The notes beneath the pieces were generated by a model. The model ran no database searches. It was not told the origin of the DNA and saw nothing but the letters and a program-made list of their open reading frames with translations. The position numbers and the translations under genes are program-made. A stretch of DNA of 64,000 bases. It comes from an uncultured Alphaproteobacteria bacterium. Lineage in GTDB: Bacteria > Pseudomonadota > Alphaproteobacteria > RF32 > CAG-239. Shown here one piece after another: positions 14,348 through 59,670 of the stretch (position 1 is the first letter of the stretch; the number at the start of each line of letters is the position of its first letter). Location of the stretch: positions 127 to 64,126 of the forward strand of contig CALXUO010000049.1 of the NCBI GenBank assembly GCA_944391695.1. The letters are read 5' to 3'.

Positions 14348-16669
14348 TTAATCTTTTAGAACACTATTTTGATAAGGGTCCACAAAATCATTGTCATCTG
14401 TATTATCAAATATATGAAATCTGTCGGAAATTTCTAACGGCGCCGTTTGATAAATCGGCGGATTGTCATCAACTACCTTTTCTTGACCGTATAAGTCACT
14501 GCTGCAAATATAGCTGTTGTCGCCTATTGCTTCCATATACGGTATCTCTTCTTGTTCATCATTAACATATACCCATTCCCAATCCTCATCCGCATTATCA
14601 TTGCTATTATCCGTAGGTGCCTCAGGTTTTTCTGGAACAGGACTAAAACCCCAATCCTCGCCGCTTGATGATATGGAAGAATCTTGGGCAATATCCGATG
14701 TTTCTTCAGATGTTTCTTCGCCACTCATTGATTGCTCTTCTTGTAAAATATTCTCTGCTTTGTCCTCAGAGGACAAAATATCATCAACTTTATTGGTCTT
14801 AAACGGAGATGGCGAATCCGACTTTGCTTCTTCTTGAGACGATAGCTCAGCAGAAATTGTTTCCTCAACGGGGCTGATTTCTTCTTCTAAAAATTTTGGC
14901 TGCGGCATCTCTGAAATAATATCATCCAGTGGTACAGTATCTTCTTTGCTTTCTGACACCAAATTATTTACAATTTCGTCTGTTTGTTTTTTCTTCTTCT
15001 TTTTTTTCTTTTTCTTTTTGACAGGCGCTTCCGCTTCTGAAAAATTATCTGTCGCAACTATTTCATTTATCTTTGCCGGTGTTGATGTTTCTTCTTCTGT
15101 TTCCCGAGGGATAAAATTATCAACGGTTTCACTTATGTTTTCCTCATTAACAATCTCCGAATTATAATTAGCACTTTCATAACTGTCTTCTGCCACATTA
15201 TTTAACGAGGCCTCATCCGTAATAAATTCTGACCGATTTTGATTATAAACGGGCGGTGCTACATTATAAACCGGTAAGCTTATTTCTTTAAGACTTTGTG
15301 CAAATATTTCTGCCAATTCTTTGGTTTGACGAGCACTTATCCTATCATAGAGCTTGCTTTGCTCTTTTATGGCTTTGGATATGGCTTTCTCAAGATTTTG
15401 ATCATTGGCTGCTTGCAAAGCTGATATTTTGTCAACCAATAACAATATCTGCGCTGAATTATCCGTTGTATTGATTTGAATATTGTTGGCATTATTGTTG
15501 GCTTGCGATGTGTTGTTTTGTTGAATGTTGGCTGATAATACCGCTTGTACCAATTTTTCTTGCGAATCGCCTATCAGTTTTAGTAATTTTTCGTCATTGG
15601 CCTCAAATCTTGAAACATTTGATGTGCCGATATTGATATTGCTTAAGCTTTTTATTACCTCTGTTTGTGATTTTTCAAACGCGGCAATAAGCTCTTTATT
15701 ATCGTTGGCCCTGCTTAATGATGTTGCTTCAACTTTATCAAGGCGTAAGTTTAGCTGCTTTTGCCCCTCTAAAACAACTTCTATCAGTTTTTGTGCAACG
15801 GTATCATTTGACGCTACATTATCAGAAGAGAGGGATTTTGATGGAAATGCTTGCGCAAAAGCTGCCAACGAAGCATTTATGGAATTTTGGCTTTGAGCAA
15901 TGGTTTGACATAATGCGCTGATTTCTTGATGCTGCTCTTCGCGCTCAATGCGATAATTTTCGGTTATGGTTTGGCATATATTTTTTAGCTCTCTGCTTTG
16001 CAAAACTGCTCCTATTTTGCTGCTGTCAGCTATTGTCTTACACAACGTGTTAATTTCTTGCCGTTGATCTTCGCGATTTTTTTCCATGCTTTGAGCCAGA
16101 TAAAGCTGAACTTTGCTTAAATCGGCCGTTAGTTTATCTAATCCTTCTTTTTGTGTGTTTGTTTGCTCTTCGATTAATCCGCCTATAATTTTGGCAAATT
16201 CGGCAGCAAAATCTTTATCTAAGCTAAGTTTGGACGGAGCTGCAACAACACCTACTCCATTGGCTCCGGAAAAAGCTTGCGGCTGGGGTTGTACCTGTAC
16301 TTGCGGCTGTGCCTGCGCTTGCGCTTTGGCCAATGCTGTTGCTAATATTTGAGCCTGTTGATGCGCCTCTTCGCTCATCTTGGGAGATGTTGTCGTGGTA
16401 TGAACAGATCTTTGGACACCACTTTTTTCAGCTAACTCATCGGCATAATCTTGAAGCATTGCCCCACCAGGAAGCGAGGAAAAAAGCCCCCTTATCTCTG
16501 GCGACAACTCCAATAGCATCTTATTGAAGCCTTCTTTGCGCTCCGGACTTAGGATGTGCATTTGGCGATAGATATTTAAAAACCTTTGCGCCACAACGAC
16601 TGGATCTTCTTCGCCGTTGCGCAAGGCTTTTCTGCGTGCTTCTGTTGTTTTATCCGATTCTAACGCCAT
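14348..16669 (-). CDS. hypothetical large acidic coiled-coil protein (no signal peptide)
   Basis: 773 aa. It contains an internal duplicated segment ('REDQRQEINTLCKTIADS' and 'REEQHQEISALCQTIAQS'), an 11-Lys run, and a very acidic D/E/S-rich C-terminal third. I see no Walker A motif. It lies immediately downstream of virB11. Confidence 0.5.
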   Translation of the reverse strand: MALESDKTTEARRKALRNGEEDPVVVAQRFLNIYRQMHILSPERKEGFNKMLLELSPEIRGLFSSLPGGAMLQDYADELAEKSGVQRSVHTTTTSPKMSEEAHQQAQILATALAKAQAQAQPQVQVQPQPQAFSGANGVGVVAAPSKLSLDKDFAAEFAKIIGGLIEEQTNTQKEGLDKLTADLSKVQLYLAQSMEKNREDQRQEINTLCKTIADSSKIGAVLQSRELKNICQTITENYRIEREEQHQEISALCQTIAQSQNSINASLAAFAQAFPSKSLSSDNVASNDTVAQKLIEVVLEGQKQLNLRLDKVEATSLSRANDNKELIAAFEKSQTEVIKSLSNINIGTSNVSRFEANDEKLLKLIGDSQEKLVQAVLSANIQQNNTSQANNNANNIQINTTDNSAQILLLVDKISALQAANDQNLEKAISKAIKEQSKLYDRISARQTKELAEIFAQSLKEISLPVYNVAPPVYNQNRSEFITDEASLNNVAEDSYESANYNSEIVNEENISETVDNFIPRETEEETSTPAKINEIVATDNFSEAEAPVKKKKKKKKKKKQTDEIVNNLVSESKEDTVPLDDIISEMPQPKFLEEEISPVEETISAELSSQEEAKSDSPSPFKTNKVDDILSSEDKAENILQEEQSMSGEETSEETSDIAQDSSISSSGEDWGFSPVPEKPEAPTDNSNDNADEDWEWVYVNDEQEEIPYMEAIGDNSYICSSDLYGQEKVVDDNPPIYQTAPLEISDRFHIFDNTDDNDFVDPYQNSVLKD
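14987..15019 (-). repeat. poly-lysine tract (11 K) encoded by a pure pyrimidine run on the + strand
   Basis: The + strand reads ttttcttcttcttttttttctttttcttttt and includes a T8 homopolymer at 15000-15007. It encodes 'KKKKKKKKKKK'. Confidence 0.85.
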
Positions 16670-17740: not shown

Positions 17741-20700
17741 TTAAAATAATGCCGGTATGCTGCTATCTGCATTGTTTGATGCTGAAGATTCCGATGAAGT
17801 GCTGCCTGCGGCCGGAATACTACCCGATGCCGGAGGAGGCGGGGGAACTATAGTATTGGTTGTCTTTTTTGGCGCCGTATCAACAATTAAAGGCGTTGTG
17901 CCAGAACTTGCTGCCTCTACTTTTACTTCATCCGGATCATATACGACTTGGCCTCCTGATGCTTTGGCTACATCTTCTCGTTTACGCTTATCAATCTCTT
18001 GTCCCGTTTTAACATCGTCTATAAATACCTCAGGTTTTTGGAATTTTTGAGATTCTTCACTATCCCGTTCAACGCTTCTTAACCACAAATCAACATTGGG
18101 ATAAACTATAATTCTAGTTCCGGCCGGAACATAGGTCATCGCCTTGACATCCGTCTTATCGGCTAAAATATCATCAAATAAACTTTCCATATCATCTAGG
18201 AAATTTTGTCGGGCGTCACTTGCCGCTTGTTGCTTTGATGTTTCAACTTCGCCGGCAGCATCATCGGCTGAAGCTATAAAATATGACGCCCCAGACGTTA
18301 ATACGGTTGTTACAACTGGCAAAGTATATTTCTTAAACAACTGCTGATCTACATAACCCAACGCTCCGGCTCTGCCTTGCGCATCTGCTGTTTGTCCGCT
18401 AAAGACAAAAATTGATCCATCTGGACGAATTAAACGCTCCCAAGTGATTTGAACGCGCGCCGATTCCGATGTCGCTTCCGCCGCTGCCGTAATACTGCCA
18501 AAAGTCCCTATCATTCGCGAACCTGCCGGAATAATCACATTACGCCCTTCTTCGGCATAAACATTTCGCTCGACGTAGGCAGTAATAGGTGCTGGATTAT
18601 TGGTATCTATTGCGCGGGCTATAACTGCAGGTATAGGTTTATCAGAGAAAATCATCTCGCTCATATCTACTCGCCATGATGAAATTGACTTCGGTATCCC
18701 TTGCTCCGACCAATCCTTTTGATAACCGTCAAACGCTTCTTTACGATAACCTGAGCTAATCTTTCCGACACTAATATTTTGCCGGCGCTCAAGCATGGCT
18801 GCATTTAAGGCGGCTTGACGTGTCGGATCATATCTTTCTCCAGGTCCATATCCGCCGCCGGGTCCCAAATTACCCGCCGGTCCGTTACCTACTCCATAAG
18901 CTCCACCGGGACCAAATGTTCCTGCCGGAATAAATACATCCTTCCCTTTTGAACCATCTGCTCTTTTTGACTTTCCTGAGTCTCCATAACTAAAATCTTC
19001 TGTGCCAATTACGTTGCCGTCATCATCTATAATCATGCCATCAGACATGCGATATCCTACTATATTGCCGTCTTTATCTATAACCACGTCATTTTCTAAA
19101 ATATCACCCAAATATTCTCCATCCGGTGTCAATGCTATACCTAAAGATTTATAATACTTTGAGCCTTCTAATAACTTTAGCGATGATGAAGCACCATCTT
19201 TTGTGCTGGGCCGGCTTTTGGTTGTTGACATAACTGAGCTTTTGGCAAACCAATTTTTATCTCTGCCCCCAATTATGTTGCCCTTGGAATCTACTAGCTC
19301 TCCTTTTTCGTTAAGACTACCAATAATTTTTCCCTGAGCATCAACAACATTACCTTCCCTATCAACATAGCCTATAATGTTACCATCTTTGTCATATATA
19401 TTGTCTTTGCCGCTGGTAGCACCATCCACCCGACCTATTATGTTACCATTGGCATCAATAAAATTCCCATTCTCATCTATACGCCCAATTATATTTCCGT
19501 TGGCGTCTATAATATTACCGTTTTCATCTACTCGGCCTATAATATTGCCATTGGCGTCAAGAAAGTTTCCATTTTCATCTATATAGCCTATGAGATTGCC
19601 GTTAGCATCATAGATGGCTTTTAAATTTTTATCCAATAGCGGAGAACCTTTGGGCGCAACACGCCCTATGATATTGCCATTAGCATCAATAAAATTCCCA
19701 TTCTCATCTATGCGGCCTATTATATTTCCGTTGGCGTCTATAATATTACCGTTTTCATCTACCCTACCTATGATGTTGCCATTGAGATCAAGAAAATTTC
19801 CGTCTTCATCTATATAGCCTATGAGATTGCCATTGGCATCATAGACTGCCCTTAAGTTTTTATCCGCCAAAGGAGAGCCTTTCTTGGCTACTCTCCCTAT
19901 TATGTTGCCGTTAAGATCGACTATGTTACCATTTTCGTCGATACGCCCGATTATATTACCGTTAGCGTCTACAATATTGCCGTTTTCATCCAAAAACCCT
20001 ATAAAATTGCCATTTTCATCAAAAATCATTTGACGCTTTAGCTGTGGTGACGATAAAGAACTGTAATATTGCAACGGTGTAGCCGTTGCTATAACTTCAG
20101 AATTGGCATTGAGTATCCTACCGGTAGCGCTGTCTAATGTCCCTACAACATTATTAAGATTGTCTAAAACTTTGCCGTCCAGTTTAAGTTGCCCTATCAC
20201 TAGTTTTGAGGCATCTCTTATGTTATAATCTCGATTGCCTCGGGCAACTACCTTCCCGCCTTTTATAACAAAACCTCTTTCAAAATCACCTAAATTTTGA
20301 TTGGTAAAACTTGAAACCTCTCCGTTACGATTTATGATACCGACAACTTTGCCGTCGTTGTCATAAACATAAAAATCATACAAAGCATATCCAATCTTTT
20401 GTTTGGATGATACAACATACCCATCAAAGTCAACTTGACCAATTTCTTTATGTTGACTATCTAAAACGCGCCCTTCTTTTGAAACATAGCCCATAAATTT
20501 GTTTTCAAGATCAAACGCTACTTTGTATTTCAACAAACTCCCCAGCGGTATACCGGAATTTGAATTTATATTGTCATTGGGTTGTTGATAGCCAATCAGC
20601 TTAGAGTTGATATCAACAACCAACCCGTTAACCACACTATAACCTATTATATTGCCATCGAAATCTATTGCCGCCTCGTATTCTATCGCTTTACCAATAA

Positions 20701-22786
20701 GTGCTTTATCTGCATTGCGCAATTGACCTTGTTTGTCTATACAACCTATTGTTTCTCCTCGTTCATTGCTTACTTTTCCGCTGTAATCTATGAAACCTAT
20801 TATCCTGCCGTTAAAATCTATTACCGGCGTCTTTTTTGCTTTATAGCCTAATAAAGACCCGCTGTCGCTGATGACATTTCCGTTTGCAAGAACTTTGCCG
20901 ATATATACACCGCGATAATTGTAAACCCCTCCGTTTGACGCTACCACTCCGACATTTTCACATTTGTCGTCTATAACACCCCCGTAGCTTGCCAGATATC
21001 CCATGATAATGCCTGAATTATCAAAAACATAACCTCTTTCCGCAACTTGACCGATTTTGGCTCCGCTTGAGTTGTTGACATTTCCTAATACATCGGCATA
21101 GCCTAAAAAATTACCTGAAAAATCCAATGCAATTATCTCTGAATAGGCCTCTCCTACTTTGGGAACATAATTTAAATTGCCAGAACTTATCTCGCTGACG
21201 CTGCCATCCGGCAAAATTTTGGCTACAGCATTAAATGACTTATTTAGCAATATGTTTTCTTCACTTACGCTCCCGATTTGCTCCCCTTTGGCATTAACTG
21301 CAAAAAATTCCGAAATATTTTTAGAAACCATTTGATTTTGGGAATTAAGAACATACCCCTCACCAACAACTCTTCCAAATTCCTCCCCTTTGGATGTTAC
21401 GGCTGAACCATTAAGACCTTGATATGCCGCCACACTACCAAATGGTGTATAGAAAGTGCTTAAATTGAGAGCTCGCCCTTCTATAGTACCTGATTGCCCA
21501 AAAACATACCCTTGTGGTGAAACAGATAACTTATTGCCCTTGTTATCTATGCTCGTATTTATACCGCTAACACCTAAAAATGCGCCGTCATTAGAAAAAA
21601 TAACCTTGGTATCCAATATCTTCCCTATTGAAATCCCTGAAAGATTATAGGCTATCTCTCCTATCATATAGCCAATCGTAGTGCCGCTTAAAGATATTAC
21701 CGATCCATTACTTAAGGCGTGACCTTTAAGCTCTCCTTTGTAGTCAAAAACAGGCCCGGTTTTTATCAAGTTGCCTATTATTTCTCCTGAGGCGTTGCTC
21801 ACTTGTCCTCGCGCACCCAAAATGCCGTTAGAACTGGTCCCTTTGGCTATTTCTCCTTCCGGAAGAAGACGCCCAAAATACCGTCCGGTTAAATCCGTTG
21901 CCGTCGAAGAGAAGTCTACTGTATAGCCTATTATGGCGTCGCTTATGTCAATTACTCTCCCATCGGCCCTTATCTTGCCAACGACTTTATTATTATTGAT
22001 GACCTCTCCGTTATAGCTGACAACGCCAAGATAAAATCCTTTATTATCAAACGCATAACCACTAACAACTATTTTGCCAATAATCGCTCCATTGCCATCA
22101 TAAACAAATCCGTTGGCTTTGATTTGACCTATGACTTTAGAATCAAAGTCCGTAACCTGGCCACCGGGAACAACACTACCTATAAATTCGCCGCTTAATG
22201 ATACAACCATCTTGGAAGAAATCAGACGTCCATCCAACAAATAATCACTGCCTATTTTCCTGTAGGCATAGCCATCCGGCGTTACAATTCCTATCTCTTG
22301 TCCACCCAAATTGGTGTACAAACCATCGCCGGTAACACGTCCAGCGATTTTTCCTTCATCATTATAGACTAGCCCCGGAAATATTACCTGCCCTAAAACA
22401 TCAAAATATTCATTAACAACTAACCCATTAGGCAAAGCCCGCCCTAAAACTTGCCCCGCAGCACTTAAAATAGAACCATCGCTGCTGACTTTACCCAAAA
22501 GACGCGCATCATTGCCTATGGCAACGCCCTGCGGCACAACGCCTCCAATAATTTCACCATCTGTATTAATTATAAGACTGTCTGCTGTAACGTTGCCTAA
22601 CAATTTATTATCAAAGCTTACGACCTTGCCGTCAGGTATTACTTTACCCAACGGCTCTCCATTGAAATTAATTGCCGTAATTTCTTGGGCATTGGCAAAA
22701 ACACTTGTAAACAACAACGCCAAAATAACCAGCATAATGTTGTTTAATAAAGAAAAATATTTTTTACAAGCCCTATATAAGCCCAT
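17741..22786 (-). CDS. virB10: giant VirB10 homolog: N-terminal TM anchor, a repeat array of about 1150 aa, a G/P-rich linker, and a VirB10 C-terminal barrel domain
   Basis: 1681 aa. The C-terminus 'ARVQITWERLIRPDGSIFVFSGQTADAQGRAGALGYVDQQLFKKY' and 'VIIPAGSRMIGTFGS' are VirB10/TrbI-like. The N-terminal anchor is 'MLVILALLFTSVFANA'. The body is a degenerate module of about 10 aa (for example 'DANGNIIGRIDENGNIVDLNGNIIGRV'). The linker reads 'GPGGAYGVGNGPAGNLGPGGGYGPG'. The gene lies between virB9 and virB11. Confidence 0.85.
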   Translation of the reverse strand: MGLYRACKKYFSLLNNIMLVILALLFTSVFANAQEITAINFNGEPLGKVIPDGKVVSFDNKLLGNVTADSLIINTDGEIIGGVVPQGVAIGNDARLLGKVSSDGSILSAAGQVLGRALPNGLVVNEYFDVLGQVIFPGLVYNDEGKIAGRVTGDGLYTNLGGQEIGIVTPDGYAYRKIGSDYLLDGRLISSKMVVSLSGEFIGSVVPGGQVTDFDSKVIGQIKANGFVYDGNGAIIGKIVVSGYAFDNKGFYLGVVSYNGEVINNNKVVGKIRADGRVIDISDAIIGYTVDFSSTATDLTGRYFGRLLPEGEIAKGTSSNGILGARGQVSNASGEIIGNLIKTGPVFDYKGELKGHALSNGSVISLSGTTIGYMIGEIAYNLSGISIGKILDTKVIFSNDGAFLGVSGINTSIDNKGNKLSVSPQGYVFGQSGTIEGRALNLSTFYTPFGSVAAYQGLNGSAVTSKGEEFGRVVGEGYVLNSQNQMVSKNISEFFAVNAKGEQIGSVSEENILLNKSFNAVAKILPDGSVSEISSGNLNYVPKVGEAYSEIIALDFSGNFLGYADVLGNVNNSSGAKIGQVAERGYVFDNSGIIMGYLASYGGVIDDKCENVGVVASNGGVYNYRGVYIGKVLANGNVISDSGSLLGYKAKKTPVIDFNGRIIGFIDYSGKVSNERGETIGCIDKQGQLRNADKALIGKAIEYEAAIDFDGNIIGYSVVNGLVVDINSKLIGYQQPNDNINSNSGIPLGSLLKYKVAFDLENKFMGYVSKEGRVLDSQHKEIGQVDFDGYVVSSKQKIGYALYDFYVYDNDGKVVGIINRNGEVSSFTNQNLGDFERGFVIKGGKVVARGNRDYNIRDASKLVIGQLKLDGKVLDNLNNVVGTLDSATGRILNANSEVIATATPLQYYSSLSSPQLKRQMIFDENGNFIGFLDENGNIVDANGNIIGRIDENGNIVDLNGNIIGRVAKKGSPLADKNLRAVYDANGNLIGYIDEDGNFLDLNGNIIGRVDENGNIIDANGNIIGRIDENGNFIDANGNIIGRVAPKGSPLLDKNLKAIYDANGNLIGYIDENGNFLDANGNIIGRVDENGNIIDANGNIIGRIDENGNFIDANGNIIGRVDGATSGKDNIYDKDGNIIGYVDREGNVVDAQGKIIGSLNEKGELVDSKGNIIGGRDKNWFAKSSVMSTTKSRPSTKDGASSSLKLLEGSKYYKSLGIALTPDGEYLGDILENDVVIDKDGNIVGYRMSDGMIIDDDGNVIGTEDFSYGDSGKSKRADGSKGKDVFIPAGTFGPGGAYGVGNGPAGNLGPGGGYGPGERYDPTRQAALNAAMLERRQNISVGKISSGYRKEAFDGYQKDWSEQGIPKSISSWRVDMSEMIFSDKPIPAVIARAIDTNNPAPITAYVERNVYAEEGRNVIIPAGSRMIGTFGSITAAAEATSESARVQITWERLIRPDGSIFVFSGQTADAQGRAGALGYVDQQLFKKYTLPVVTTVLTSGASYFIASADDAAGEVETSKQQAASDARQNFLDDMESLFDDILADKTDVKAMTYVPAGTRIIVYPNVDLWLRSVERDSEESQKFQKPEVFIDDVKTGQEIDKRKREDVAKASGGQVVYDPDEVKVEAASSGTTPLIVDTAPKKTTNTIVPPPPPASGSIPAAGSTSSESSASNNADSSIPALF
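19400..20030 (-). repeat. in-frame tandem repeat of about 231 bp (77 aa), about 2.7 copies, inside virB10
   Basis: 'atatagcctatgagattgcc' occurs at 19581 and 19812, an offset of 231. The flanking sequence aligns with few mismatches (not tallied). The protein units read 'YDANGNLIGYIDE[DN]GNFLD...GRVAPKGSPLLDKNLKAI'. Confidence 0.8.
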
Positions 22787-22788
22787 CT

Positions 22789-25700
22789 CTAATTCCTTTT
22801 GTTTTTGGCTACTTCGCCCAAAACATAACCTGAAACATTCTTATCCAAATCAATAAATGACCCATTGTTCTTAATGTAGCCAATATTCTCTCCTTGGGAA
22901 TTAATAACCGTTCCGTCTTGAGACAGCCTTCCTAAATACTGCCCGTCATTGCCCAAAACAGTAGCCCCTATTTTATAGACCTTGCCTAAAATACGGTTGT
23001 TTAAGTCTATTGCCAAGCCTCCGGATAATGTCTTGCCTATTATACTAGCATCTTTGCCTATAATTTTACCATCAAAATCTACATAACCCACAACTTTATC
23101 ATCGTTGGATATAATTATATCCCCAAAGACAACCTCTCCTATAAGCTTACCACTTATGCTCATCACATTGCCGTCTGATAAAACTTTGCCTAATGCTACA
23201 CCTGACATATCAGAAACAATACCGTCCGGAGCTACCGCCCCTATAACATTGCCTCCAAAATCTATAACAAACCCAGGATATAGTAAACTTAAATTCTTAT
23301 CACTGCTGCCGCCGGGAAGAACCGCTGTAATAATGTTGCCGTTTAGATCTATAACATCTCCCAATGAGTTCAAAAGCCCTTTATAGTTTCCCATGGCATC
23401 TACCATTATGCCCTCGGGGATTACTTCACCTATAATTTCGTCATCGCTGTTGACAACTTTTTTATCATGCGTTACCGAACCGATATTTTGTCCATCCAGA
23501 TTAATAACCCGACCATCAGATACCGCATATCCTAAGTATGATCCGTCATAACCTATGGCCGCTCCTCTGGCCACTATTCCGCCTTGATACTCACCCTTGA
23601 AATTAAAAAATTCACCTTTGGCATTGACCTTTCCCAACGTATCACCATAGCGACTAAATACCATGCCGTCTTCAACCGCCACTCCGACAACATCTCCTTT
23701 AAGGTTTATCACTTCTCCTACCGGAGAAAGAGCTCCATATATGTTGTTATATGCGCCAAATCCGCCATTCTTGATTAGTCCTTGAGATACGCCTTTATTA
23801 TCATAAATCTGACCATCGGGGAATAAACGCCCAATTAAATTACCTGATGAGCCTACAATTGCGGTTTTTGCCGGTACAGCGCTTCCGAGTATTCGATTTT
23901 TCTCGCCTAAAACCAAGTTGCTAGCAGAAAGTGTGGCTGACGGTTTTCCATAAATCCTAACTTGTGCTTTGTTATCAACCCGATTAATATATTCTCCAAC
24001 AGAAGTATAAGCATATCGCTCACCCAATACTCTGCCAATGTATGCTCCTTTGCTGTTAAATACATCGCCTAACAAACCAACACATCCAACCGGAAGCTTG
24101 GCGTCATTTACCACAACATTGTTAGCATTAACTTCTCCGAGATATTCGCCAGAAAGTCCCACCGCTGCTCCGGTTTTGCCTACAGCTCCTATAAAATTCC
24201 CTTTTTCATCTAAGACACTTCCGTCTGGGTTAACACAACCGATGTAACGGTTGTTTATATCTTTTACAATACCTGAATTGTCAACAATTCCTAAAAAATT
24301 ACAATCATTATCAAATACTCGTCCGACTTTTAGGGTTTCTCCCAAATATGTACCTTCAGAATTTATAACCGTACCCTCTGGAGTTATTTTATAGTTGGTT
24401 TCCTCATTGCCTTTTTTTATCTTTCCGTCTTTGTCAAGATAGCCTATTTGATTGCAGCCGTATCCTATAATGCTGCCAGCTCTTACCATCTTGGCAATCA
24501 CTTTTGATCCGTTGGCATCTTTAACCAATCCGTTGGGCAAAGCTCGGCCGACCACCTGTTTCTTATCATTTTCTATTGAGCCATCATTTTGCAACTCGCC
24601 TAAAAGCGTGCCTTGCGGAGTGATTGCTATTTTTTCAAAACTAACTAATTTACCGATGATGTTTCCGTCCTCATCAAAAAGTACTTCCTCCCCGACATAA
24701 CCTATAACATTTCCATTCAAATCAACCACTGTGCCATCAGGCAACATTTTGCCTATAATGTTACCGTTGGCATCTAACAGGTTGCCGTTTTCATCAACAT
24801 ACCCTATGATATTGCCGTATTTATCGTAAGCTACTCTGAGTTTCTTACCTTCAAGCGGAGAGTTTTTGGTTATAACGTTGCCGTTTTCATCAACATGGCC
24901 TATGATATTACCATCAGCATCAACAACACTGCCGTCCGGCAATACCACACCTAAAACTTTGCCGTTCTCATCCACCGCTACACGCCCCGGCTTGGTTACC
25001 GATCCAATAACGTTACCATTTAAATCTACAACTGTGCCATCAGGCAAAACTCTACCTATAACATTTCCATTTAAATCTACAACTGTGCCATCGGGTAAAA
25101 CACGCCCAATAATATTGCCGTTTTCATCATAAACAAATCCGGTTTCAACTGCCCGCCCAATAGGCTTTCCGTCCAAATCTACAACCGTGCCGTCAGGTAA
25201 CATTCGTCCAATGATATTGCCATCTAAATCTACAACCGTACCATCAGGATTAACATATCCTATCAAGTTTCCAAATTCATCATAAACCGCACGGCGATTC
25301 TCGGCAACCCCCATCACATTTCCGTCTTTATCCAAAATTAGGCCATCAGGACTTACTCGGCCTATGATGTTTCCATTGGCATCTCTTGCATATCCATCCT
25401 CATCTATAATTCCTATAGTCTTCCCATCAGGACCTATAGCATAACGTGTTGCTTTGTGTTGCCCTCCGGAATCGCCGGGTGAAACAGGTTCGCAGTAATT
25501 ACAATCTTCTTTGGTTACTGCCGAACCTGTAACCGGAACCTTGGCCGCCTTAACACTTTCTTTGCCCAAATTAAGTTCATGCCAAGATACTATGAAGTTA
25601 TTTTGCACATTGCCCGCAACAACCGGAGTCCAACTCATTGTAATATGGCAGGTTTCATCTCCGGTTAGTGTCCTACTTGTGCAATTATCATTATATGTAA

Positions 25701-26088
25701 ATCCTGCCGCAGGAGGATCTGCCAACTCAACCGAAACTATTTTGATAGACGCTTTGCCGTTGGTTCCCAATGTTAAAACATTTTTTGCCTCTGTACCTAA
25801 AACAACCTCTCCCATCGGAACAGGATCCGGTGTGGTCGTAAGCGGTATTTCACCCTCTACGGTAGAAAATTCTATACTTTGCGTTGTTGTCGTTGTCGGA
25901 ATATCGCCAAAAACATCCGCATTATCGGTAAATATCGGCTCTTCATATTCCTCAACATCATTTCCACTTTTGATAAGCAAAATTAAACCGAAAATAAAAA
26001 TAAACAACGAGGAAAGACCAATCATCAAAATGATGTTATTGGTCTTTTTTACGTATTTTTCGGAATGTGTTAACGGCTCTTTGCTCAT
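22789..26088 (-). CDS. membrane-anchored repeat protein that shares the VirB10 repeat module but has no VirB10 barrel
   Basis: 1099 aa with TM helix 'IILMIGLSSLFIFIFGLILLI'. A beta-rich segment 'KASIKIVSVELADPPAAGFTYNDNCTSRTLTGDETCHITMSWTP' looks Ig/PapD-like. About 850 aa of 'PDGTVVDLNGNVIGRVL'-type repeats follow. It is inserted between virB9 and virB10, with a stop-to-start gap of 2 nt. Confidence 0.7.
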   Translation of the reverse strand: MSKEPLTHSEKYVKKTNNIILMIGLSSLFIFIFGLILLIKSGNDVEEYEEPIFTDNADVFGDIPTTTTTQSIEFSTVEGEIPLTTTPDPVPMGEVVLGTEAKNVLTLGTNGKASIKIVSVELADPPAAGFTYNDNCTSRTLTGDETCHITMSWTPVVAGNVQNNFIVSWHELNLGKESVKAAKVPVTGSAVTKEDCNYCEPVSPGDSGGQHKATRYAIGPDGKTIGIIDEDGYARDANGNIIGRVSPDGLILDKDGNVMGVAENRRAVYDEFGNLIGYVNPDGTVVDLDGNIIGRMLPDGTVVDLDGKPIGRAVETGFVYDENGNIIGRVLPDGTVVDLNGNVIGRVLPDGTVVDLNGNVIGSVTKPGRVAVDENGKVLGVVLPDGSVVDADGNIIGHVDENGNVITKNSPLEGKKLRVAYDKYGNIIGYVDENGNLLDANGNIIGKMLPDGTVVDLNGNVIGYVGEEVLFDEDGNIIGKLVSFEKIAITPQGTLLGELQNDGSIENDKKQVVGRALPNGLVKDANGSKVIAKMVRAGSIIGYGCNQIGYLDKDGKIKKGNEETNYKITPEGTVINSEGTYLGETLKVGRVFDNDCNFLGIVDNSGIVKDINNRYIGCVNPDGSVLDEKGNFIGAVGKTGAAVGLSGEYLGEVNANNVVVNDAKLPVGCVGLLGDVFNSKGAYIGRVLGERYAYTSVGEYINRVDNKAQVRIYGKPSATLSASNLVLGEKNRILGSAVPAKTAIVGSSGNLIGRLFPDGQIYDNKGVSQGLIKNGGFGAYNNIYGALSPVGEVINLKGDVVGVAVEDGMVFSRYGDTLGKVNAKGEFFNFKGEYQGGIVARGAAIGYDGSYLGYAVSDGRVINLDGQNIGSVTHDKKVVNSDDEIIGEVIPEGIMVDAMGNYKGLLNSLGDVIDLNGNIITAVLPGGSSDKNLSLLYPGFVIDFGGNVIGAVAPDGIVSDMSGVALGKVLSDGNVMSISGKLIGEVVFGDIIISNDDKVVGYVDFDGKIIGKDASIIGKTLSGGLAIDLNNRILGKVYKIGATVLGNDGQYLGRLSQDGTVINSQGENIGYIKNNGSFIDLDKNVSGYVLGEVAKNKRN

Positions 26089-26096
26089 CTTGATTT

Positions 26097-27743
26097 TTAT
26101 TGTGTCCTTACTACGCTGCAGAATATACCGTTACGTCCAAGTCTACTGCATATCCTATCCCCTTCGCTAAGATTTTTAATCGGCCCTACACGTAAATGAA
26201 AAAGCTCTTTACCTTTGCCGTCAGCTGGTGCGTCCACCGAGAAAAACGGCGTAAGTCCATTTAATTCTCCGCTATAGGTTGATGATAAGCGGCTCCACAG
26301 AGATTCCAGATTGCTCACATCTCCATCTGCGCCAAGCTCTATTGAAATAGTCGAATTATCTCCATCGCTAAATCCTTTGCCATAGCCATATTGCGACAAG
26401 CCTGAATTTTTATACTGCGATTGGTCAAAGCTTTGTTGCTGGTTTGCCGTTGTATTACTGATACGCTGCATCTTAGAATAGTCAAAACTATCTGCAATAT
26501 TGCCATTTTGCGGATAATTATCGTTGGTGTATTCTGGAACAATAATCTGGCTTTGCCCCATCTGGATATCAACCTGGCCGGGCATAGCACTCATCCCTTG
26601 ACCGCCACCTAAGGATGCACCGCCCCCCATCATTTGAGCTCCGAAAGCGGACGAGTTTATCCCCATCGTCTGCTGATTGGGAATTGTCGGACCAACTTGC
26701 CATGTCGGCGGCATATAATCGCTTGAGTCAATAGCAAATTCCAAACCGCTCTCATTAGAACGGCGCATCTTAATACAAATTATGCGTTTACCGTTACGAA
26801 GCACCATATCACCCACGCCCTCAACTATAATCAATCTGTTATCCGGACCTTTGGTTCTAAATCCTACCGGCACTTCAACCCTCTCAACAATCATGCTAAC
26901 AACAGGCCTTTGGGTCATGTTAAGCGCTTTTTTGCCTAAATCAATATAGGTAAAGATATTATCGCGCCATACTCTTTCAGGGGCAATTACCACATCATCA
27001 GGATTGGGAACATATACCTCCAAATCAAACCTAAACTCACTCGGATCAACAGGTATTGTCTTGAGCCAATCTGATTTTTGCAAGCGCCTAGTATAGGTTG
27101 CATCAACTGACTTATTACCACTTGAAGAACCTCCGCTTGAGCCACCAGCAAACGGTGTTGACCCACCGGAGCCTGATGGCGCATATTCGTCAACGACATC
27201 TATATCAATGATGGCGTTAGTTAGACGCTCGGTATTTACAGCCTCTGATTTAACATAAAACACATAACGATTACCTGAGCGCCCAAAAACGATAACATTA
27301 GTATCAACCCCTACATTGGCTCCTCTTTTAGGGTATAATAACAAAGTGCTGGGACCTGATATCTGTCCGTCAAATGTAGCACTATCTCCAATAAAAATAT
27401 CCTCTATCAGCTCCCATTCAGGGAAGTTTACCATGGTGATCATCCCCTCGCGCACACGAATCGGCAAAACCAAATCAGGCGTCCAGTAATACCTCGAATA
27501 TGCAGGCTTGCTTTGTCCCTCGCCCAGATTTTGCAACGGATCAAGCCAGGCCGCCTGTGTCATACCCAAAGAATTGAAACCAGCGTACCCCATATTCATC
27601 GGCGTATAGTTACCCTGCGCTTGCTCAGCGCTGGCGTCCATCATTTGCTGATCCACTTGCGCTAAAACCGACTGCGTTAATACCAAAAGAACCGTCGCCA
27701 CCAATAATAAAATTTTTATTTTTACTCTATCTCTCACGTTCAA
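26097..27743 (-). CDS. virB9: VirB9 homolog fused to a low-complexity linker and a C-terminal SPOR-like domain
   Basis: 548 aa with signal peptide 'LLLVATVLLVLTQSVLAQ'. The N-domain 'LPIRVREGMITMVNFPEWELIEDIFIGDS...NRYVFYVKS' and the C-domain 'PERVWRDNIFTYIDLGKK...PVVSMIV' are VirB9-like. The G/Q/M/S-rich linker is about 170 aa. The last 85 aa, 'LFHLRVGPIKNLSEGDRICSRLGRNGIFCSVVR', match the SPOR consensus pattern. Confidence 0.8.
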   Translation of the reverse strand: MNVRDRVKIKILLLVATVLLVLTQSVLAQVDQQMMDASAEQAQGNYTPMNMGYAGFNSLGMTQAAWLDPLQNLGEGQSKPAYSRYYWTPDLVLPIRVREGMITMVNFPEWELIEDIFIGDSATFDGQISGPSTLLLYPKRGANVGVDTNVIVFGRSGNRYVFYVKSEAVNTERLTNAIIDIDVVDEYAPSGSGGSTPFAGGSSGGSSSGNKSVDATYTRRLQKSDWLKTIPVDPSEFRFDLEVYVPNPDDVVIAPERVWRDNIFTYIDLGKKALNMTQRPVVSMIVERVEVPVGFRTKGPDNRLIIVEGVGDMVLRNGKRIICIKMRRSNESGLEFAIDSSDYMPPTWQVGPTIPNQQTMGINSSAFGAQMMGGGASLGGGQGMSAMPGQVDIQMGQSQIIVPEYTNDNYPQNGNIADSFDYSKMQRISNTTANQQQSFDQSQYKNSGLSQYGYGKGFSDGDNSTISIELGADGDVSNLESLWSRLSSTYSGELNGLTPFFSVDAPADGKGKELFHLRVGPIKNLSEGDRICSRLGRNGIFCSVVRTQ

Positions 27744-28484
27744 CTACTCCACCTTGTTGCGGCTTAACGCATATCTTAACACCGTAAATCCGACCGGATT
27801 TTTTAACCTGTCGTCATACTTAACCTTTTTGCGACGATAGCCGACATTCAATGATGCCGTCCAATAACCTATCTCCGGCTCAGTAGAATCCGGATACATA
27901 TCCCTTGTTTCATATTCAACCTGCCAAATACCGTCTGTCAACTCATTAACTGACAAAATCTTTACCGTGCGTTCAAAACCTTTATTCTTGATAAGACTAA
28001 TCGCTTTGGTCGCAACATTATCCAAAAAATCCTGATAAACACGATTATCCGACATCTCTTGTATAGGGCCGCCCGGCATCCATCTGGCCTCAACCTCAGA
28101 AACATCGCTACTGAAAGTACTGCGCAAGAGAACATACTCCCTTACAAACACCTCGGTAATCGCTTTACGATTGCGCAATTCCGTCGTGAGTGGCTGAATA
28201 TTATAAACTTGTTCGGAACGATTTTGAAACGTAAGCAAAAACGGCTCAACCCTATATAGCGGAACAACTTGGAAAATAGCCAGAATCAACACGATATTGC
28301 AACACAAACTAACCGCCGTAATTACTGCAAACGCTCTAGCTGTCCACAAATAGCGTTTTTCAGCAATGTTGGCAACAAAAATATCCTCACCTGCGCTTTT
28401 TGATGAAGAGCCACGCCCAGGTATGCGGCGACGCCCCTCCAAAAGCCTTGACTGCGGTTTATCCTGTCCGATTTCTTCCACCAT
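27744..28484 (-). CDS. virB8: VirB8 homolog (paralog 2)
   Basis: 246 aa. An N-terminal cytoplasmic stretch is followed by the TM helix 'AFAVITAVSLCCNIVLILAIFQVVPL', then 'VEPFLLTFQNRSEQVYNIQPL' and 'ITEVFVREYVLLRSTF', which are typical VirB8 periplasmic-domain motifs. Confidence 0.8.
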   Translation of the reverse strand: MVEEIGQDKPQSRLLEGRRRIPGRGSSSKSAGEDIFVANIAEKRYLWTARAFAVITAVSLCCNIVLILAIFQVVPLYRVEPFLLTFQNRSEQVYNIQPLTTELRNRKAITEVFVREYVLLRSTFSSDVSEVEARWMPGGPIQEMSDNRVYQDFLDNVATKAISLIKNKGFERTVKILSVNELTDGIWQVEYETRDMYPDSTEPEIGYWTASLNVGYRRKKVKYDDRLKNPVGFTVLRYALSRNKVE

Positions 28485-28505: not shown

Positions 28506-28694
28506 CTATATCGTTGCGACAAACCAATCAGGCAGAGTCTTCGGCAACTCTACCTCCATACAGGCGCACGGCGATAATTTAAGCTCATCGTTGCCGGAAC
28601 CTATACCTATAGGCTCAGGCTCGTAATAAGAACCATAGCAGCCCGATAACACAAATAAAACAAACAGAATCAATATTTTACATCTTGTTTTCAT
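28506..28694 (-). CDS. virB7: VirB7-like small lipoprotein
   Basis: I trimmed the ORF to the ATG at 28694 (AGGAGG upstream). It is 62 aa, with 'MKTRCKILILFVLFVLSGC' carrying an LSGC lipobox. It sits between two virB8 paralogs and upstream of virB9, as rvhB7 does in Rickettsiales. Confidence 0.6.
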   Translation of the reverse strand: MKTRCKILILFVLFVLSGCYGSYYEPEPIGIGSGNDELKLSPCACMEVELPKTLPDWFVATI

Positions 28695-28799
28695 GAGAAA
28701 CAACCCTCCTTAAGGGGTTAATATATAGCACTATAGATAGTATGAAATTATACCGTTTTATTTTAAATGTCTAACAGCTTAGATATACTTATCAACAAA

Positions 28800-51069: not shown

Positions 51070-51736
51070 ATGAAAATCGGTCTGATTGTGGCTATGGACA
51101 AAGAATTTGAGCTGATTTGCAAAACTTTGAAAAATATGCTAACCTAAAAAATCGAACATCTAACTTTTGCAGAAGGAAGGCTTGGGCAAAATCAGATAAT
51201 TTTGGTGCAATCAGGTATCGGGAAAGTGTGTTCAGCCGTGGCTACAATGGAAATGATTAAGAATTTTGCACCAGAATATATAATAAGCACCGGAGTTGCC
51301 GGCGGGTTTGCGAAAAAAATTAAAATTGCAGATATTGTGGCCGCAAAACAGATATCTTATCATGACGTGTGGTGCGGAAACGGTAATGAGCTTGGCCAAA
51401 TACAAGGTTTTCCGGCAAAATTTGACGGAGATAAAACCTTGTTGAAGAAACTATCCAATATCAAACTTGGCAACAAAATACATTGCGGACTAATCGTCAG
51501 CGGCGACAGATTTATTGATTGTAAAGACGAACTTAAAAAAATTAAAAAATGTTTTCCGACAGCGTTGGCGGTCGATATGGAATCGGCTTCTATTGCCCAA
51601 GTATGCCATTTGTATAACATACCATTTATGGCGCTTCGTATTATAAGTGATGCTCCAGATAGTTTATCAATATAAAAAATTTTGGCAAACCGCTCCCGCA
51701 GAGTCCCTGGAGATTATAAAAAAATTGCTTAATTAG
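51070..51736 (+). pseudogene. mtnN: 5'-methylthioadenosine/S-adenosylhomocysteine nucleosidase (mtnN/pfs) disrupted by an in-frame TAA and a 3' frameshift
   Basis: The ATG at 51070 gives 'MKIGLIVAMDKEFELICKTLKNMLT', then TAA at 51145-51147. The same frame continues 'KIEHLTFAEGRLGQNQIILVQSGIGKVCSA...MESASIAQVCH...LRIISDAPD'. The expected C-terminus 'VYQYKKFWQTAPAESLEIIKKLLN' is readable only in the +1 frame after about 51655. Confidence 0.75.
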
Positions 51737-52271: not shown

Positions 52272-52359
52272 TTTTAATTTATCTTTCAATTTTGTTGTGC
52301 TAAATATATAAATAACATCTGTTTTTAGCAACATATTTTTTTAAGAAAGGTTTTGAAAA

Positions 52360-52491
52360 ATGCGACGCGAAAAATCAAATTTGATTTACTATGTGGTTGC
52401 CGTTGTGATTGTTGCTGCCTTGGGATTGGTTATGTTTCATGAAATTCCGCTGCATCAAGAACATGTTGAAGAAGTTGTAAAACAGCTATGA
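52360..52491 (+). CDS. possible 43-aa single-TM micro-protein translationally coupled to xerD
   Basis: Not in the ORF track because it is under 60 aa. The product is 'MRREKSNLIYYVVAVVIVAALGLVMFHEIPLHQEHVEEVVKQL'. Its TGA overlaps the xerD ATG as ATGA (52488-52491). Confidence 0.35.
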   Translation: MRREKSNLIYYVVAVVIVAALGLVMFHEIPLHQEHVEEVVKQL

Positions 52492-59646: not shown

Positions 59647-59670
59647 TAAGTTTTACGGGAGATACCGGAG

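What the first reader, a model, noticed from the sequence alone, without database searches (positions are those of the whole stretch)
26097..26354. VirB9 carries a C-terminal SPOR-like (peptidoglycan-binding) domain
Seen in the sequence: a complete VirB9-like N-domain and C-domain are followed by a G/Q/M/S-rich linker of about 170 aa. After that, the 548-aa protein ends with 'SIELGADGDVSNLESLWSRLSS...ELFHLRVGPIKNLSEGDRICSRLGRNGIFCSVVR'. This matches the SPOR pattern (beta-alpha-beta-beta, '...yRvrvGPf.s..eA..lC.rL...g..C.vv').

Established knowledge: SPOR domains bind denuded glycan strands of peptidoglycan. Canonical VirB9 has no cell-wall-binding module, and T4SSs normally bring a lytic transglycosylase (VirB1). 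I do not see one in this window.

Inference: the outer-membrane core complex is tethered directly to the sacculus. This might compensate for, or cooperate with, a missing VirB1.
Basis: partly seen in the sequence, partly recalled or inferred. Interest (0 to 1): 0.65.

Follow-up and report, generated by a model that had tools for sequence, protein, structure and literature searches.

The report
VirB9 with a C-terminal SPOR-like domain
In a type IV secretion system of uncultured gut Alphaproteobacteria, the outer-membrane subunit VirB9 really does end in a conserved SPOR-type (cell-wall-glycan-binding) fold on a long floppy linker, but the glutamine that SPOR domains use to grip the glycan is replaced, so cell-wall binding is likely and not assured.

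Summary
ORF 26097-27743 (- strand, 548 aa) has five parts:
- a signal peptide
- a complete VirB9 core (Pfam CagX, residues 83-325)
- a disordered, hypervariable G/Q/S/N-rich linker of about 117 aa (not 170)
- two conserved islands inside that linker
- an 86-aa C-terminal domain

The C-terminal domain passes the Pfam SPOR threshold (22-28 bits against a cut-off of 21). AlphaFold2 folds it as beta-alpha-beta-beta-alpha-beta. Its best PDB matches are the SPOR domains of RlpA and CwlC.

The domain is as conserved as the VirB9 core across at least 60 intact orthologues. The gene order is the same in 80 of 80 species-level genomes of gut and rumen Alphaproteobacteria. A homologous two-cysteine tail also occurs on more distant VirB9 proteins, for example on a Microvirga plasmid. 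No source name among those shown and no paper found mentions it.

Two cautions apply. The invariant SPOR glutamine (FtsN Q251, RlpA Q270) is an invariant glutamate here. The domain is also acidic (pI 5.7, against 10 for FtsN).

My best reading is a flexible peptidoglycan tether or positioning module on the outer-membrane core complex. Its ligand is untested. The idea that it compensates for a missing VirB1 has no support. This is a new variant of a known kind, of moderate interest.

The parts
27660..27743 (-). Signal peptide of VirB9-SPOR (residues 1-28, MNVRDRVKIKILLLVATVLLVLTQSVLA|QV)
   Evidence: Read from the sequence: a hydrophobic core followed by an A-x-A-like site. It is poorly conserved across orthologues (0.34). 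The cleavage site is inferred.
27498..27659 (-). Conserved N-terminal extension (residues 29-82) before the Pfam VirB9 match
   Evidence: Column conservation is 0.86 across 60 orthologues. No family was assigned.
26769..27497 (-). VirB9 core: N-domain, a 30-aa G/S linker (residues 186-215) and C-domain (Pfam CagX, residues 83-325)
   Evidence: PF03524, E 6.6e-13. The family profile matches the solved X. citri VirB9 6gyb (N- and C-domains) and R388 TrwF 7o3j (C-domain), and both chains end where this C-domain ends. Conservation is 0.87-0.90.
26358..26708 (-). Disordered G/Q/S/N-rich linker (residues 346-462)
   Evidence: pLDDT is below 50. The length is hypervariable, 88-149 aa, with conservation of about 0.35. 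In the window protein the composition is G 18, Q 17, S 13, N 9 of 117 residues.
26529..26579 (-). Conserved linker island 1 (residues 389-405, GQVDIQMGQSQIIVPEY)
   Evidence: Conservation is 0.72 inside a linker at 0.35. Function is unknown. It is a candidate short docking motif (inference).
26454..26489 (-). Conserved linker island 2 (residues 419-430, SFDYSKMQRISN)
   Evidence: Conservation is 0.85. Function is unknown.
26100..26357 (-). SPOR-family domain (residues 463-548), beta-alpha-beta-beta-alpha-beta, followed by the stop codon at 26097-26099
   Evidence: Pfam SPOR scores 22.1-28.0 bits against a gathering score of 21. The AF2 model is confident and its top three PDB matches are SPOR domains. 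hhalign against the E. coli FtsN/DamX/RlpA/DedD SPOR alignment gives 92.8% probability, E 3.9e-7, 82 columns. Conservation is 0.83.
26337..26339 (-). Glu469 codon: the position of the invariant SPOR glutamine (FtsN Q251, RlpA Q270)
   Evidence: The hhalign alignment pairs ISIELGAD with WMVQCGSF. Pfam profile position 8 maps to this residue by coordinates. It is Glu in 60 of 60 orthologues and Glu, Asp or rarely Gln in more distant relatives.
26118..26150 (-). Cys532 (helix alpha2) to Cys542 (start of strand beta4): a probable disulfide
   Evidence: These are the only two invariant columns across all relatives, including the distant tails. Cys542 aligns with FtsN Cys312. The disulfide itself is inferred.
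27744..28484 (-). VirB8 paralogue directly upstream
   Evidence: PF04335, E 8.4e-25. The gene order is conserved in 80 of 80 loci.
28506..28703 (-). 65-aa lipoprotein-like ORF (lipobox LSGC) between the two virB8 genes; a candidate VirB7
   Evidence: Read from the sequence. It is present in 79 of 80 related loci. No family hit.
22789..26088 (-). 1099-aa beta-flower/YD-repeat protein directly downstream
   Evidence: PF21785, E 1.2e-63. It is conserved between virB9 and virB10 in 80 of 80 loci.
17741..22786 (-). Giant VirB10 (1681 aa): beta-flower repeats plus a TrbI domain at residues 1379-1569
   Evidence: PF03743, E 2.1e-34, and PF21785, E 1.3e-86.

Best explanation
The gene encodes the VirB9 subunit of a chromosomal VirB-type (type IVA-like) secretion system of uncultured gut Alphaproteobacteria. 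After a normal VirB9 core comes a disordered G/Q-rich tether of about 117 aa, then a compact, probably disulfide-stabilised SPOR-family domain.

In solved systems VirB9 is present in 14 or so copies, and its C-domain sits in the outer-membrane layer of the core complex (established knowledge of pKM101, R388 and X. citri structures). The machine would therefore carry a skirt of SPOR domains on leashes long enough to reach the peptidoglycan.

The most likely function is non-covalent attachment of the outer-membrane core complex to glycan strands of the sacculus. That would anchor or stabilise this unusually large machine. Because characterised SPOR domains prefer amidase-denuded strands, it could also bias assembly to sites where such strands occur, namely the septum and new pole.

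Shown here: the fusion, the fold, family membership by profile, strong purifying selection, and spread across hundreds of genomes.

Inferred: peptidoglycan as the ligand, the stoichiometry and geometry, and the disulfide. The ligand may differ from canonical denuded glycan, because the key Gln is Glu and the domain is acidic.
For: Family and fold:
- Pfam SPOR is above threshold, and 22 of 30 diverse relatives hit SPOR and nothing else.
- The AF2 model is confident, with a SPOR-like beta-alpha-beta-beta-alpha-beta topology.
- The top three Foldseek PDB hits are RlpA and CwlC SPOR domains, followed by a clear drop in score.
- hhalign against four E. coli SPOR domains gives 92.8% probability and E 3.9e-7 across the whole domain.

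Selection and spread:
- The domain is as conserved as the VirB9 core (0.83 against 0.87-0.90), while the tether is hypervariable in length and sequence.
- The best 80 of at least 571 species-level genome hits all match through residue 548, in identical gene order.
- The tail also occurs on VirB9 of an otherwise ordinary conjugative-type T4SS in Microvirga, which has no beta-flower protein. Any partner must therefore be common to different T4SS contexts, as the cell wall is.

Architecture and residues:
- A long Q-rich disordered linker followed by a C-terminal SPOR domain is also the FtsN layout (own knowledge).
- His516 and Arg518, both invariant, lie on strand beta3 at and near the FtsN R285 / RlpA R309 position.

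Precedent: the Dot/Icm outer-membrane complex carries OmpA-like peptidoglycan-binding subunits, DotK and Dis1 (PMC9302130).
Against: - The only residue highly conserved among characterised SPOR domains is the beta1 Gln. Its amide donates hydrogen bonds to the MurNAc lactyl carboxylate and the GlcNAc N-acetyl group. Here it is an invariant Glu, and the Phe four residues later is Asp (PMC6895207).
- The domain is acidic: pI 5.7, family median 5.1, against 10.0 for FtsN. The paper calls the basic patch 'strictly preserved' among the SPOR domains of known structure.
- There is no sequence-level hit to any solved SPOR chain.
- Pfam SPOR does not detect the distant tails.
- No binding or localisation data exist.
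Confidence: 0.55

Rival explanations
1. The SPOR-like fold has been re-used as a protein-protein docking module. It would bind another periplasmic T4SS component, such as VirB10, a VirB8 paralogue, VirB6-like proteins or the lipoprotein, and not peptidoglycan.
For: - The canonical glycan-contact Gln is replaced by Glu, Phe by Asp, and the surface is acidic.
- Two conserved short islands in the linker look like docking motifs.
- Within the gut clade the domain sequence is nearly frozen, as expected for a fixed protein interface.
Against: - Across the wider subfamily only the two Cys and the fold-defining pattern are conserved, while surface residues vary freely. That fits a conserved fold or ligand class better than a fixed protein interface.
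- The tail occurs in T4SS loci of very different composition.
- Every characterised SPOR domain binds peptidoglycan (PMC6895207 and the abstract of bioRxiv 10.1101/2022.07.01.498525).
Confidence: 0.25
2. The domain binds peptidoglycan, but its role is targeting rather than anchoring. It would recruit nascent VirB9 to amidase-processed septal wall, so that machines are built at division sites and inherited at new poles, using wall that is already being remodelled.
For: - Characterised SPOR domains recognise denuded glycans enriched at the septum (PMC6895207).
- No VirB1-type hydrolase was found among the window ORFs scanned.
- The long tether allows capture before assembly (inference).
Against: - The Gln-to-Glu change and the acidic surface question recognition of denuded glycan specifically.
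- There are no localisation data.
- Absence of VirB1 from the genome is unproven.
- The Microvirga relative has a cell wall hydrolase gene near its T4SS.
Confidence: 0.15
3. The SPOR resemblance is a chance or compositional match, and the tail is an unrelated lineage-specific domain.
For: - The whole-protein Pfam score is only 1 bit above threshold.
- There is no phmmer or profile hit to solved SPOR sequences.
Against: Four independent lines agree:
- Pfam hits in 22 of 30 relatives, best E 6e-8.
- Profile-profile E 3.9e-7 against E. coli SPOR domains.
- Matching topology.
- SPOR structures as the top three fold hits at probability 1.00.
Confidence: 0.03

Closest known systems
SPOR domains of cell-division proteins (E. 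coli FtsN, DamX, DedD, RlpA; P. aeruginosa RlpA; B. subtilis CwlC), Pfam PF05036
   Same: - The same RNP-like beta-alpha-beta-beta-alpha-beta fold.
- Profile-level homology and the GP motif after strand beta3.
- A C-terminal position after a long disordered Q-rich linker, as in FtsN.
- A Cys aligned with FtsN Cys312.
   Different: - The domain is fused to a secretion-system subunit instead of a divisome protein or lytic enzyme.
- The invariant Gln is Glu, Phe is Asp, and the FtsN R285 position is His.
- It is acidic rather than basic.
- The Cys pair links helix alpha2 to strand beta4, not beta1 to beta4 as in FtsN.
Canonical VirB9/TrbG (X. citri VirB9 6gyb, R388 TrwF 7o3j, pKM101 TraO)
   Same: - The N- and C-domains are homologous.
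- The gene sits between virB8 and virB10.
- It has a signal peptide.
   Different: - Solved VirB9 proteins are about 255-266 aa and stop at the end of the C-domain. This protein adds a 54-aa N-terminal extension and a 220-aa tether plus SPOR tail.
- The subfamily is small. Only 522 of 1.84 billion cluster representatives match at E <= 1e-3.
DotK and Dis1 (Lpg0657) of the Legionella Dot/Icm outer-membrane complex
   Same: They are peptidoglycan-binding-type domains that form stoichiometric parts of a T4SS outer-membrane complex (PMC9302130).
   Different: - They have an OmpA-like fold, not SPOR.
- They are separate lipoprotein subunits, not a fusion to the VirB9-like subunit.
- They belong to a type IVB system.
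VirB9 proteins of other Alphaproteobacteria with a two-Cys C-terminal tail (e.g. Microvirga spp. WP_262266973.1, WP_203447098.1 on plasmid pMVF16-3)
   Same: - The terminal domain is homologous: hhalign 96.4% probability, E 1.1e-9, 87 columns.
- It has the same invariant C-x(9-11)-C and the same position after a long low-complexity linker.
   Different: - Pfam SPOR does not detect it.
- The beta1 Glu is not conserved.
- It sits in a conjugative-type locus with a relaxase and VirD4, and has a P/A-rich rather than G/Q-rich linker.

Membership tests
SPOR domain (Pfam PF05036) | The profile HMM score reaches the curated gathering threshold | tested here: met
   Scores are 22.1 bits (whole protein), 27.4 bits (last 107 aa) and 28.0 bits (last 93 aa) against a cut-off of 21. 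Of 30 diverse relatives, 22 also match.
SPOR domain (Pfam PF05036) | RNP-like beta-alpha-beta-beta-alpha-beta fold with a four-stranded sheet backed by two helices | tested here: met
   The AF2 model has strands at 25-32, 57-63, 73-79 and 102-105, helices at 35-48 and 84-96, and pLDDT above 90. The top Foldseek hits are 6i09 and 6i05 (RlpA SPOR) and 1x60 (CwlC SPOR), with target-normalised TM-scores of 0.70-0.77. This rests on a predicted structure, not an experimental one.
SPOR domain (Pfam PF05036) | Conserved glutamine in strand beta1 (profile position 8; RlpA Q270, FtsN Q251, DamX Q351) that contacts MurNAc and GlcNAc | tested here: not met
   Glu469 aligns with the Gln that is invariant in all four E. 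coli SPOR domains. It is Glu in 60 of 60 orthologues. The role of the Gln comes from PMC6895207.
SPOR domain (Pfam PF05036) | Basic patch on the sheet that binds the free lactyl carboxylate (RlpA R302/R309/R311; FtsN R285) | tested here: inconclusive
   His516 aligns with FtsN R285, and Arg518 is invariant two residues on. Overall, though, the domain is acidic, with pI 5.7 against 10.0 for FtsN.
SPOR domain (Pfam PF05036) | Binds amidase-denuded peptidoglycan glycan strands and localises to the septum | not testable with these tools
   This needs sacculus pull-down or ITC, and localisation of a periplasmic fluorescent fusion.
VirB9/TrbG/CagX (Pfam PF03524) | Profile match over both VirB9 domains, above threshold | tested here: met
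   49.4 bits against a cut-off of 34.2, covering profile positions 4-196 of 198. The family profile hits the solved X. citri VirB9 (both domains) and the TrwF C-domain. The NCBIfam VirB9 equivalog score is far below its cut-off (30 against 218), so this is a divergent subfamily.
VirB9/TrbG/CagX (Pfam PF03524) | Encoded within a T4SS operon between virB8 and virB10, with virB4 and virB11 present | tested here: met
   VirB2 (two copies), VirB4, VirB8 (two copies), VirB10/TrbI and VirB11 are all on the same strand. The local order (orf1308-virB8-lipoprotein ORF-virB8-virB9-beta-flower) holds in 78-80 of 80 related loci. virB10 is detected in 78, virB11 in 69 and orf773 in 18, partly because the loci are cut at +-10 kb.
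VirB9/TrbG/CagX (Pfam PF03524) | Forms the outer-membrane core complex with VirB7 and VirB10 | not testable with these tools
   This is inferred from homology only. The full-length AF2 model was unusable (pLDDT 38).

The most novel reading that the evidence does not exclude
The VirB9-linked SPOR domains would be a functionally distinct SPOR subclass. The invariant Gln-to-Glu swap and the acidic sheet would retune the domain to a different wall feature, for example N-deacetylated (cationic) glycan, which canonical SPOR domains are predicted not to bind. Alternatively, they would couple T4SS assembly to septal wall remodelling, so that machines are built at division sites without a dedicated VirB1. 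Either way, a whole order of gut Alphaproteobacteria, and some plasmid T4SSs, would position their secretion machines by reading a chemical mark in the cell wall.
Probability: 0.15. Interest if true: 0.7.

Novelty: new variant of a known kind. Interest (0 to 1): 0.42.

Why it matters
How type IV secretion machines cross and attach to the peptidoglycan layer is poorly defined for VirB-type systems. Only the VirB1 hydrolase is usually invoked. Here a wall-binding-type domain is built into the core outer-membrane subunit, in probably 14 or more copies per machine. It is conserved across hundreds of gut-associated species and also occurs in cultured relatives. That gives a concrete, testable handle on anchoring or positioning of the machine. 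The Gln-to-Glu SPOR variant is also a natural test of how strict SPOR ligand specificity is. The practical weight is limited. Fusing wall-binding modules to envelope machines is a familiar theme, and the host organisms are uncultured.

Tried and rejected
- Sequence searches of the tail against PDB chains, as a single sequence and as a 30-sequence profile, found no SPOR chain. Only weak coiled-coil noise came back. The link to solved SPOR domains therefore rests on Pfam, hhalign and fold comparison.
- hhalign against FtsN alone aligned only the second half of the domain, at low probability. A four-sequence E. coli SPOR alignment was needed to align the whole domain.
- The full-length AF2 model built on a 16-sequence, low-diversity alignment was unusable (mean pLDDT 38). 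Only the SPOR part folded, so there is no model of domain arrangement and no Cys-Cys distance.
- Pfam on ten distant VirB9 proteins with long tails, and on ten distant tails alone, gave a SPOR hit for only one protein, P0139. Their homology to the window's tail is shown only by profile-profile comparison and by the shared two-Cys signature.
- A lenient Pfam scan (E <= 1) and an NCBIfam scan of the unassigned large ORFs of the locus found no SLT, amidase or other wall-hydrolase domain. They also gave no identity for orf773, which sits where VirD4 would be.
- Literature searches found nothing linking a SPOR domain to a T4SS subunit. The searches were 'VirB9' + 'SPOR domain' (0 papers), 'type IV secretion' + 'SPOR domain' (16 papers, none of the 14 listed relevant by title), 'VirB9' + 'peptidoglycan-binding' (11 papers, unrelated apart from the DotK/Dis1 review) and 'RF32' + 'Alphaproteobacteria' + 'type IV secretion' (0 papers).
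- Two papers on FtsN and DamX mutagenesis were not held. The residue roles are therefore cited through PMC6895207.
- The beta-flower protein was considered as the tail's specific partner and rejected, because the Microvirga locus has the tail but no such protein.
Full report
**What is at the coordinates.**
The finding lies in the last 85 codons of a 548-aa ORF on the minus strand (26097-27743, TTG start). Independent gene callers call the same 548-aa product on other metagenome contigs.

Pfam places a complete VirB9/CagX match at residues 83-325, covering profile positions 4-196 of 198 with E 6.6e-13. It places a SPOR match at residues 466-546. The SPOR score is 22.1 bits in the whole protein, 27.4 bits for the last 107 aa and 28.0 bits for the last 93 aa, against a gathering score of 21.

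The N-terminus reads as a Sec signal peptide (MNVRDRVKIKILLLVATVLLVLTQSVLA|QV; sequence), so the protein is periplasmic. The NCBIfam VirB9 equivalog scores far below its cut-off. This is therefore a divergent VirB9.

**Is the tail really a SPOR domain?**
Four independent lines agree.
- In an alignment of 30 diverse relatives of the tail (A3, 23-65% identical to the window's), 22 hit Pfam SPOR on their own. The best E-value is 6e-8, and no other family is hit.
- AlphaFold2 on the last 107 aa gives pLDDT above 90 over most of the domain and the order beta-alpha-beta-beta-alpha-beta.
- A Foldseek search of the PDB returns exactly three hits with E <= 0.001, and all three are SPOR domains. They are P. 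aeruginosa RlpA with and without denuded glycan (6i09, 6i05; target-normalised TM-scores 0.77 and 0.76, rmsd 2.3-2.4 A) and B. subtilis CwlC (1x60; 0.70). Below them are generic ferredoxin-like folds at E >= 9e-3.
- A profile-profile comparison of A3 with an alignment of the four E. coli SPOR domains (FtsN, DamX, RlpA, DedD) gives 92.8% probability and E 3.9e-7 over 82 columns spanning the whole domain.

Plain sequence searches against PDB chains find nothing. This is therefore a distant SPOR subfamily and not a close copy of a known one.

**Where it departs from canonical SPOR.**
The hhalign alignment pairs ISIELGAD of the window with WMVQCGSF of FtsN. Four differences follow.
- Glu469 occupies the position of the glutamine that is invariant in all four E. 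coli domains. The RlpA co-crystal study names this as the only highly conserved side chain among SPOR domains of known structure. Its amide donates hydrogen bonds to the MurNAc lactyl carboxylate and the GlcNAc N-acetyl group (PMC6895207).
- Asp473 replaces the preferred Phe at profile position 12.
- His516 sits at the FtsN R285 / RlpA R309 position, with Arg518 two residues later.
- The domain is acidic: pI 5.7, with a family median of 5.1, against 10.0 for the FtsN SPOR domain. The paper describes the basic patch as strictly preserved among the SPOR domains of known structure.

Across 60 intact orthologues, Glu469, Gly471, Trp483, His516, Arg518, Gly520, Cys532 and Cys542 are all invariant. 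The substitution is therefore selected and is not decay.

The two cysteines are the only columns invariant across every relative, including very distant ones. Cys542 aligns with FtsN Cys312. A disulfide is likely but inferred, and it would link helix alpha2 to strand beta4, not beta1 to beta4 as in FtsN.

**Anatomy of the rest of the protein.**
Column conservation across the 60 orthologues:

| Segment | Conservation |
|---|---|
| N-terminal extension (29-82) | 0.86 |
| VirB9 N-domain | 0.90 |
| G/S inter-domain linker (186-215) | 0.48 |
| VirB9 C-domain | 0.87 |
| Tether (346-462) | about 0.35 |
| SPOR domain | 0.83 |

The tether varies from 88 to 149 aa in length. It contains two conserved islands: GQVDIQMGQSQIIVPEY (389-405, conservation 0.72) and SFDYSKMQRISN (419-430, 0.85).

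The family profile matches the solved X. citri VirB9 (6gyb, 255 aa) and R388 TrwF (7o3j, 266 aa). Both chains end within a few residues of where this C-domain ends. The last ~220 residues are therefore an addition to the canonical protein. The full-length AlphaFold2 model was unusable outside the SPOR part.

**Context.**
The gene sits in a large T4SS locus, all on the minus strand. It contains:
- two VirB2 genes, VirB4 and several TrbL/VirB6-like and unassigned large ORFs
- VirB8, then a 65-aa lipoprotein-like ORF, then a second VirB8
- VirB9-SPOR
- a 1099-aa beta-flower/YD-repeat protein
- a 1681-aa VirB10 with beta-flower repeats
- VirB11
- an unassigned 773-aa ORF

None of the 48 ORFs of >=120 aa scanned hits a lytic transglycosylase, amidase or other wall-hydrolase family. 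For the ten unassigned large ORFs rescanned, this holds even at E <= 1. Nothing can be said about the rest of the genome.

**Distribution.**
- The 5.8-billion-protein search returned 1930 relatives. The best 120 are 66-94% identical and cover 95-100% of the query. The few that carry names are 'Proteobacteria bacterium CAG:495', 'MAG Alphaproteobacteria TrbG/VirB9' and 'VirB9-like'.
- The scan of one genome per GTDB species found at least 571 genomes with a relative. The best 80 are all uncultured gut or rumen Alphaproteobacteria from human, mouse, deer, sheep and rabbit. All 80 match through residue 548. All 80 keep virB8-lipoprotein ORF (79 of 80)-virB8-virB9-beta-flower, and 78 keep orf1308 and virB10. 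virB11 is seen in 69 and orf773 in 18, partly because the loci are cut at +-10 kb.
- In the exhaustive search of 1.84 billion 50%-identity representatives, only 522 proteins match at E <= 1e-3. This is a small VirB9 subfamily.
- Among the best 150 representatives, 121 have an intact VirB9 C-domain end, and 62 of those have tails of >=70 aa. A combined HMM detects a terminal SPOR-like domain in 42 of the 121. The terminal C-x(8-14)-C signature is present in 53 of the 121, 52 of them with long tails.
- The distant tails are not detected by Pfam SPOR. They are homologous to the window's tail by profile-profile comparison: 96.4% probability, E 1.1e-9, 87 columns.
- One such protein comes from cultured Microvirga species (WP_262266973.1 and relatives). 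On plasmid pMVF16-3 of Microvirga sp. VF16 it lies in a conjugative-type locus with a MobA/MobL relaxase, VirB2, VirB3, VirB8, VirB9, VirB10, an ATPase and a VirD4-type coupling protein. That locus has no beta-flower protein, and an annotated cell wall hydrolase lies about 13 kb upstream.

**Is it already known?**
The source names that are given call these proteins TrbG/VirB9, VirB9-like, ComB9 or hypothetical. Most entries carry no name at all. Only 1 of the 120 precomputed Pfam strings carries PF05036.

No paper in the library holds both 'VirB9' and 'SPOR domain'. The 14 listed of the 16 papers holding 'type IV secretion' and 'SPOR domain' looked unrelated by title, and the one opened did not link the two.

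The nearest described analogues are DotK and Dis1 of the Legionella Dot/Icm outer-membrane complex. These are separate subunits with OmpA-like peptidoglycan-binding domains (PMC9302130). Wall-binding modules on other envelope machines are also familiar, for example LysM on TsaP, AMIN on PilQ and OmpA-like domains on MotB (own knowledge).

**How it most likely works.**
- Shown: a complete VirB9 carries a flexible tether and a conserved SPOR-family fold, under purifying selection, in hundreds of species.
- Established knowledge: the VirB9 C-domain lies in the outer-membrane layer of a roughly 14-fold core complex, and all characterised SPOR domains bind peptidoglycan glycan strands that lack stem peptides.
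- Inference: the machine carries a ring of tethered SPOR domains that reach the sacculus. They would anchor or position the outer-membrane complex, possibly at sites of amidase activity.

I give this reading 0.55. Several points favour it. The tail occurs in T4SS loci of very different composition, which favours a universal partner such as the wall. The layout copies FtsN, with a Q-rich linker followed by a C-terminal SPOR domain. His516 and Arg518 keep part of the basic site.

The Gln-to-Glu change and the acidic surface count against it. They could mean a changed wall ligand or a protein partner (rival, 0.25). A targeting role at the septum is a variant of the main reading (0.15). A chance resemblance is very unlikely (0.03).

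**Verdict.**
This is a new variant of a known kind: a SPOR-family module fused to a T4SS core subunit, unannotated and, in the papers searched, undescribed. Interest is moderate. The most interesting open point is what the invariant glutamate does to ligand specificity.

Noticed in passing
window 14348-48807 (- strand); also 2097-4625, 6579-7883, 7902-10253, 53388-55340: The T4SS locus has duplicated VirB2 and VirB8, many TrbL/VirB6-like paralogues and a small lipoprotein ORF between the two virB8 genes. From memory, this layout resembles the Rickettsiales vir homolog (rvh) system. Here it is in gut Alphaproteobacteria, and the virB8-virB11 part is conserved across the 80 related species-level loci (virB11 was detected in 69).
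   Followed up: partly
window 22789-26088 and 17741-22786 (- strand): A 1099-aa beta-flower/YD-repeat protein with an N-terminal hydrophobic segment sits between virB9 and virB10. VirB10 itself is a 1681-aa giant with about 11 beta-flower repeats ahead of its TrbI domain. Both are conserved in the related loci (80 and 78 of 80). I know of no described T4SS with such repeats.
   Followed up: partly
window 14348-16669 (- strand): A 773-aa ORF sits directly after virB11, where a VirD4 coupling protein would be expected. It has no Pfam, NCBIfam or PDB sequence match. It is less conserved than its neighbours (37-90% identity).
   Followed up: partly
window 43247-47707 (- strand): A 1486-aa ORF between the VirB2 genes and VirB4 has only a weak, sub-threshold TrbC/VirB2-like stretch (residues 709-748, E 0.007).
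   Followed up: no
window 57315-62320 (+ strand): A separate pilus-type cluster encodes a TcpQ-like protein, a secretin and a PilO-like accessory protein (type IVb pilus-like).
   Followed up: no
window 26454-26579 (- strand), residues 389-405 and 419-430 of VirB9-SPOR: Two short conserved islands lie inside the otherwise hypervariable tether (GQVDIQMGQSQIIVPEY and SFDYSKMQRISN). They look like linear docking motifs and have no assigned partner.
   Followed up: partly
window 27498-27659 (- strand), residues 29-82 of VirB9-SPOR: A highly conserved 54-aa extension (conservation 0.86) lies between the signal peptide and the start of the Pfam VirB9 match. The solved VirB9 proteins compared here do not have it.
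   Followed up: no
L082 (Microvirga sp. VF16 plasmid pMVF16-3, NZ_CP069357.1) 1394-1744 and 15001-16653: A 730-kb plasmid typed 'non-mobilizable' carries a full conjugative-type T4SS with a relaxase. Its VirB9 has the homologous two-Cys tail, and a small annotated cell wall hydrolase gene lies about 13 kb upstream.
   Followed up: partly
window 49024-53387: Housekeeping genes flank the T4SS locus: a ROK kinase, LuxS, a phosphoribosyltransferase, a nucleoside phosphorylase and shikimate kinase, plus a XerC/D-type tyrosine recombinase. This suggests the locus is chromosomal and not on a plasmid.
   Followed up: no
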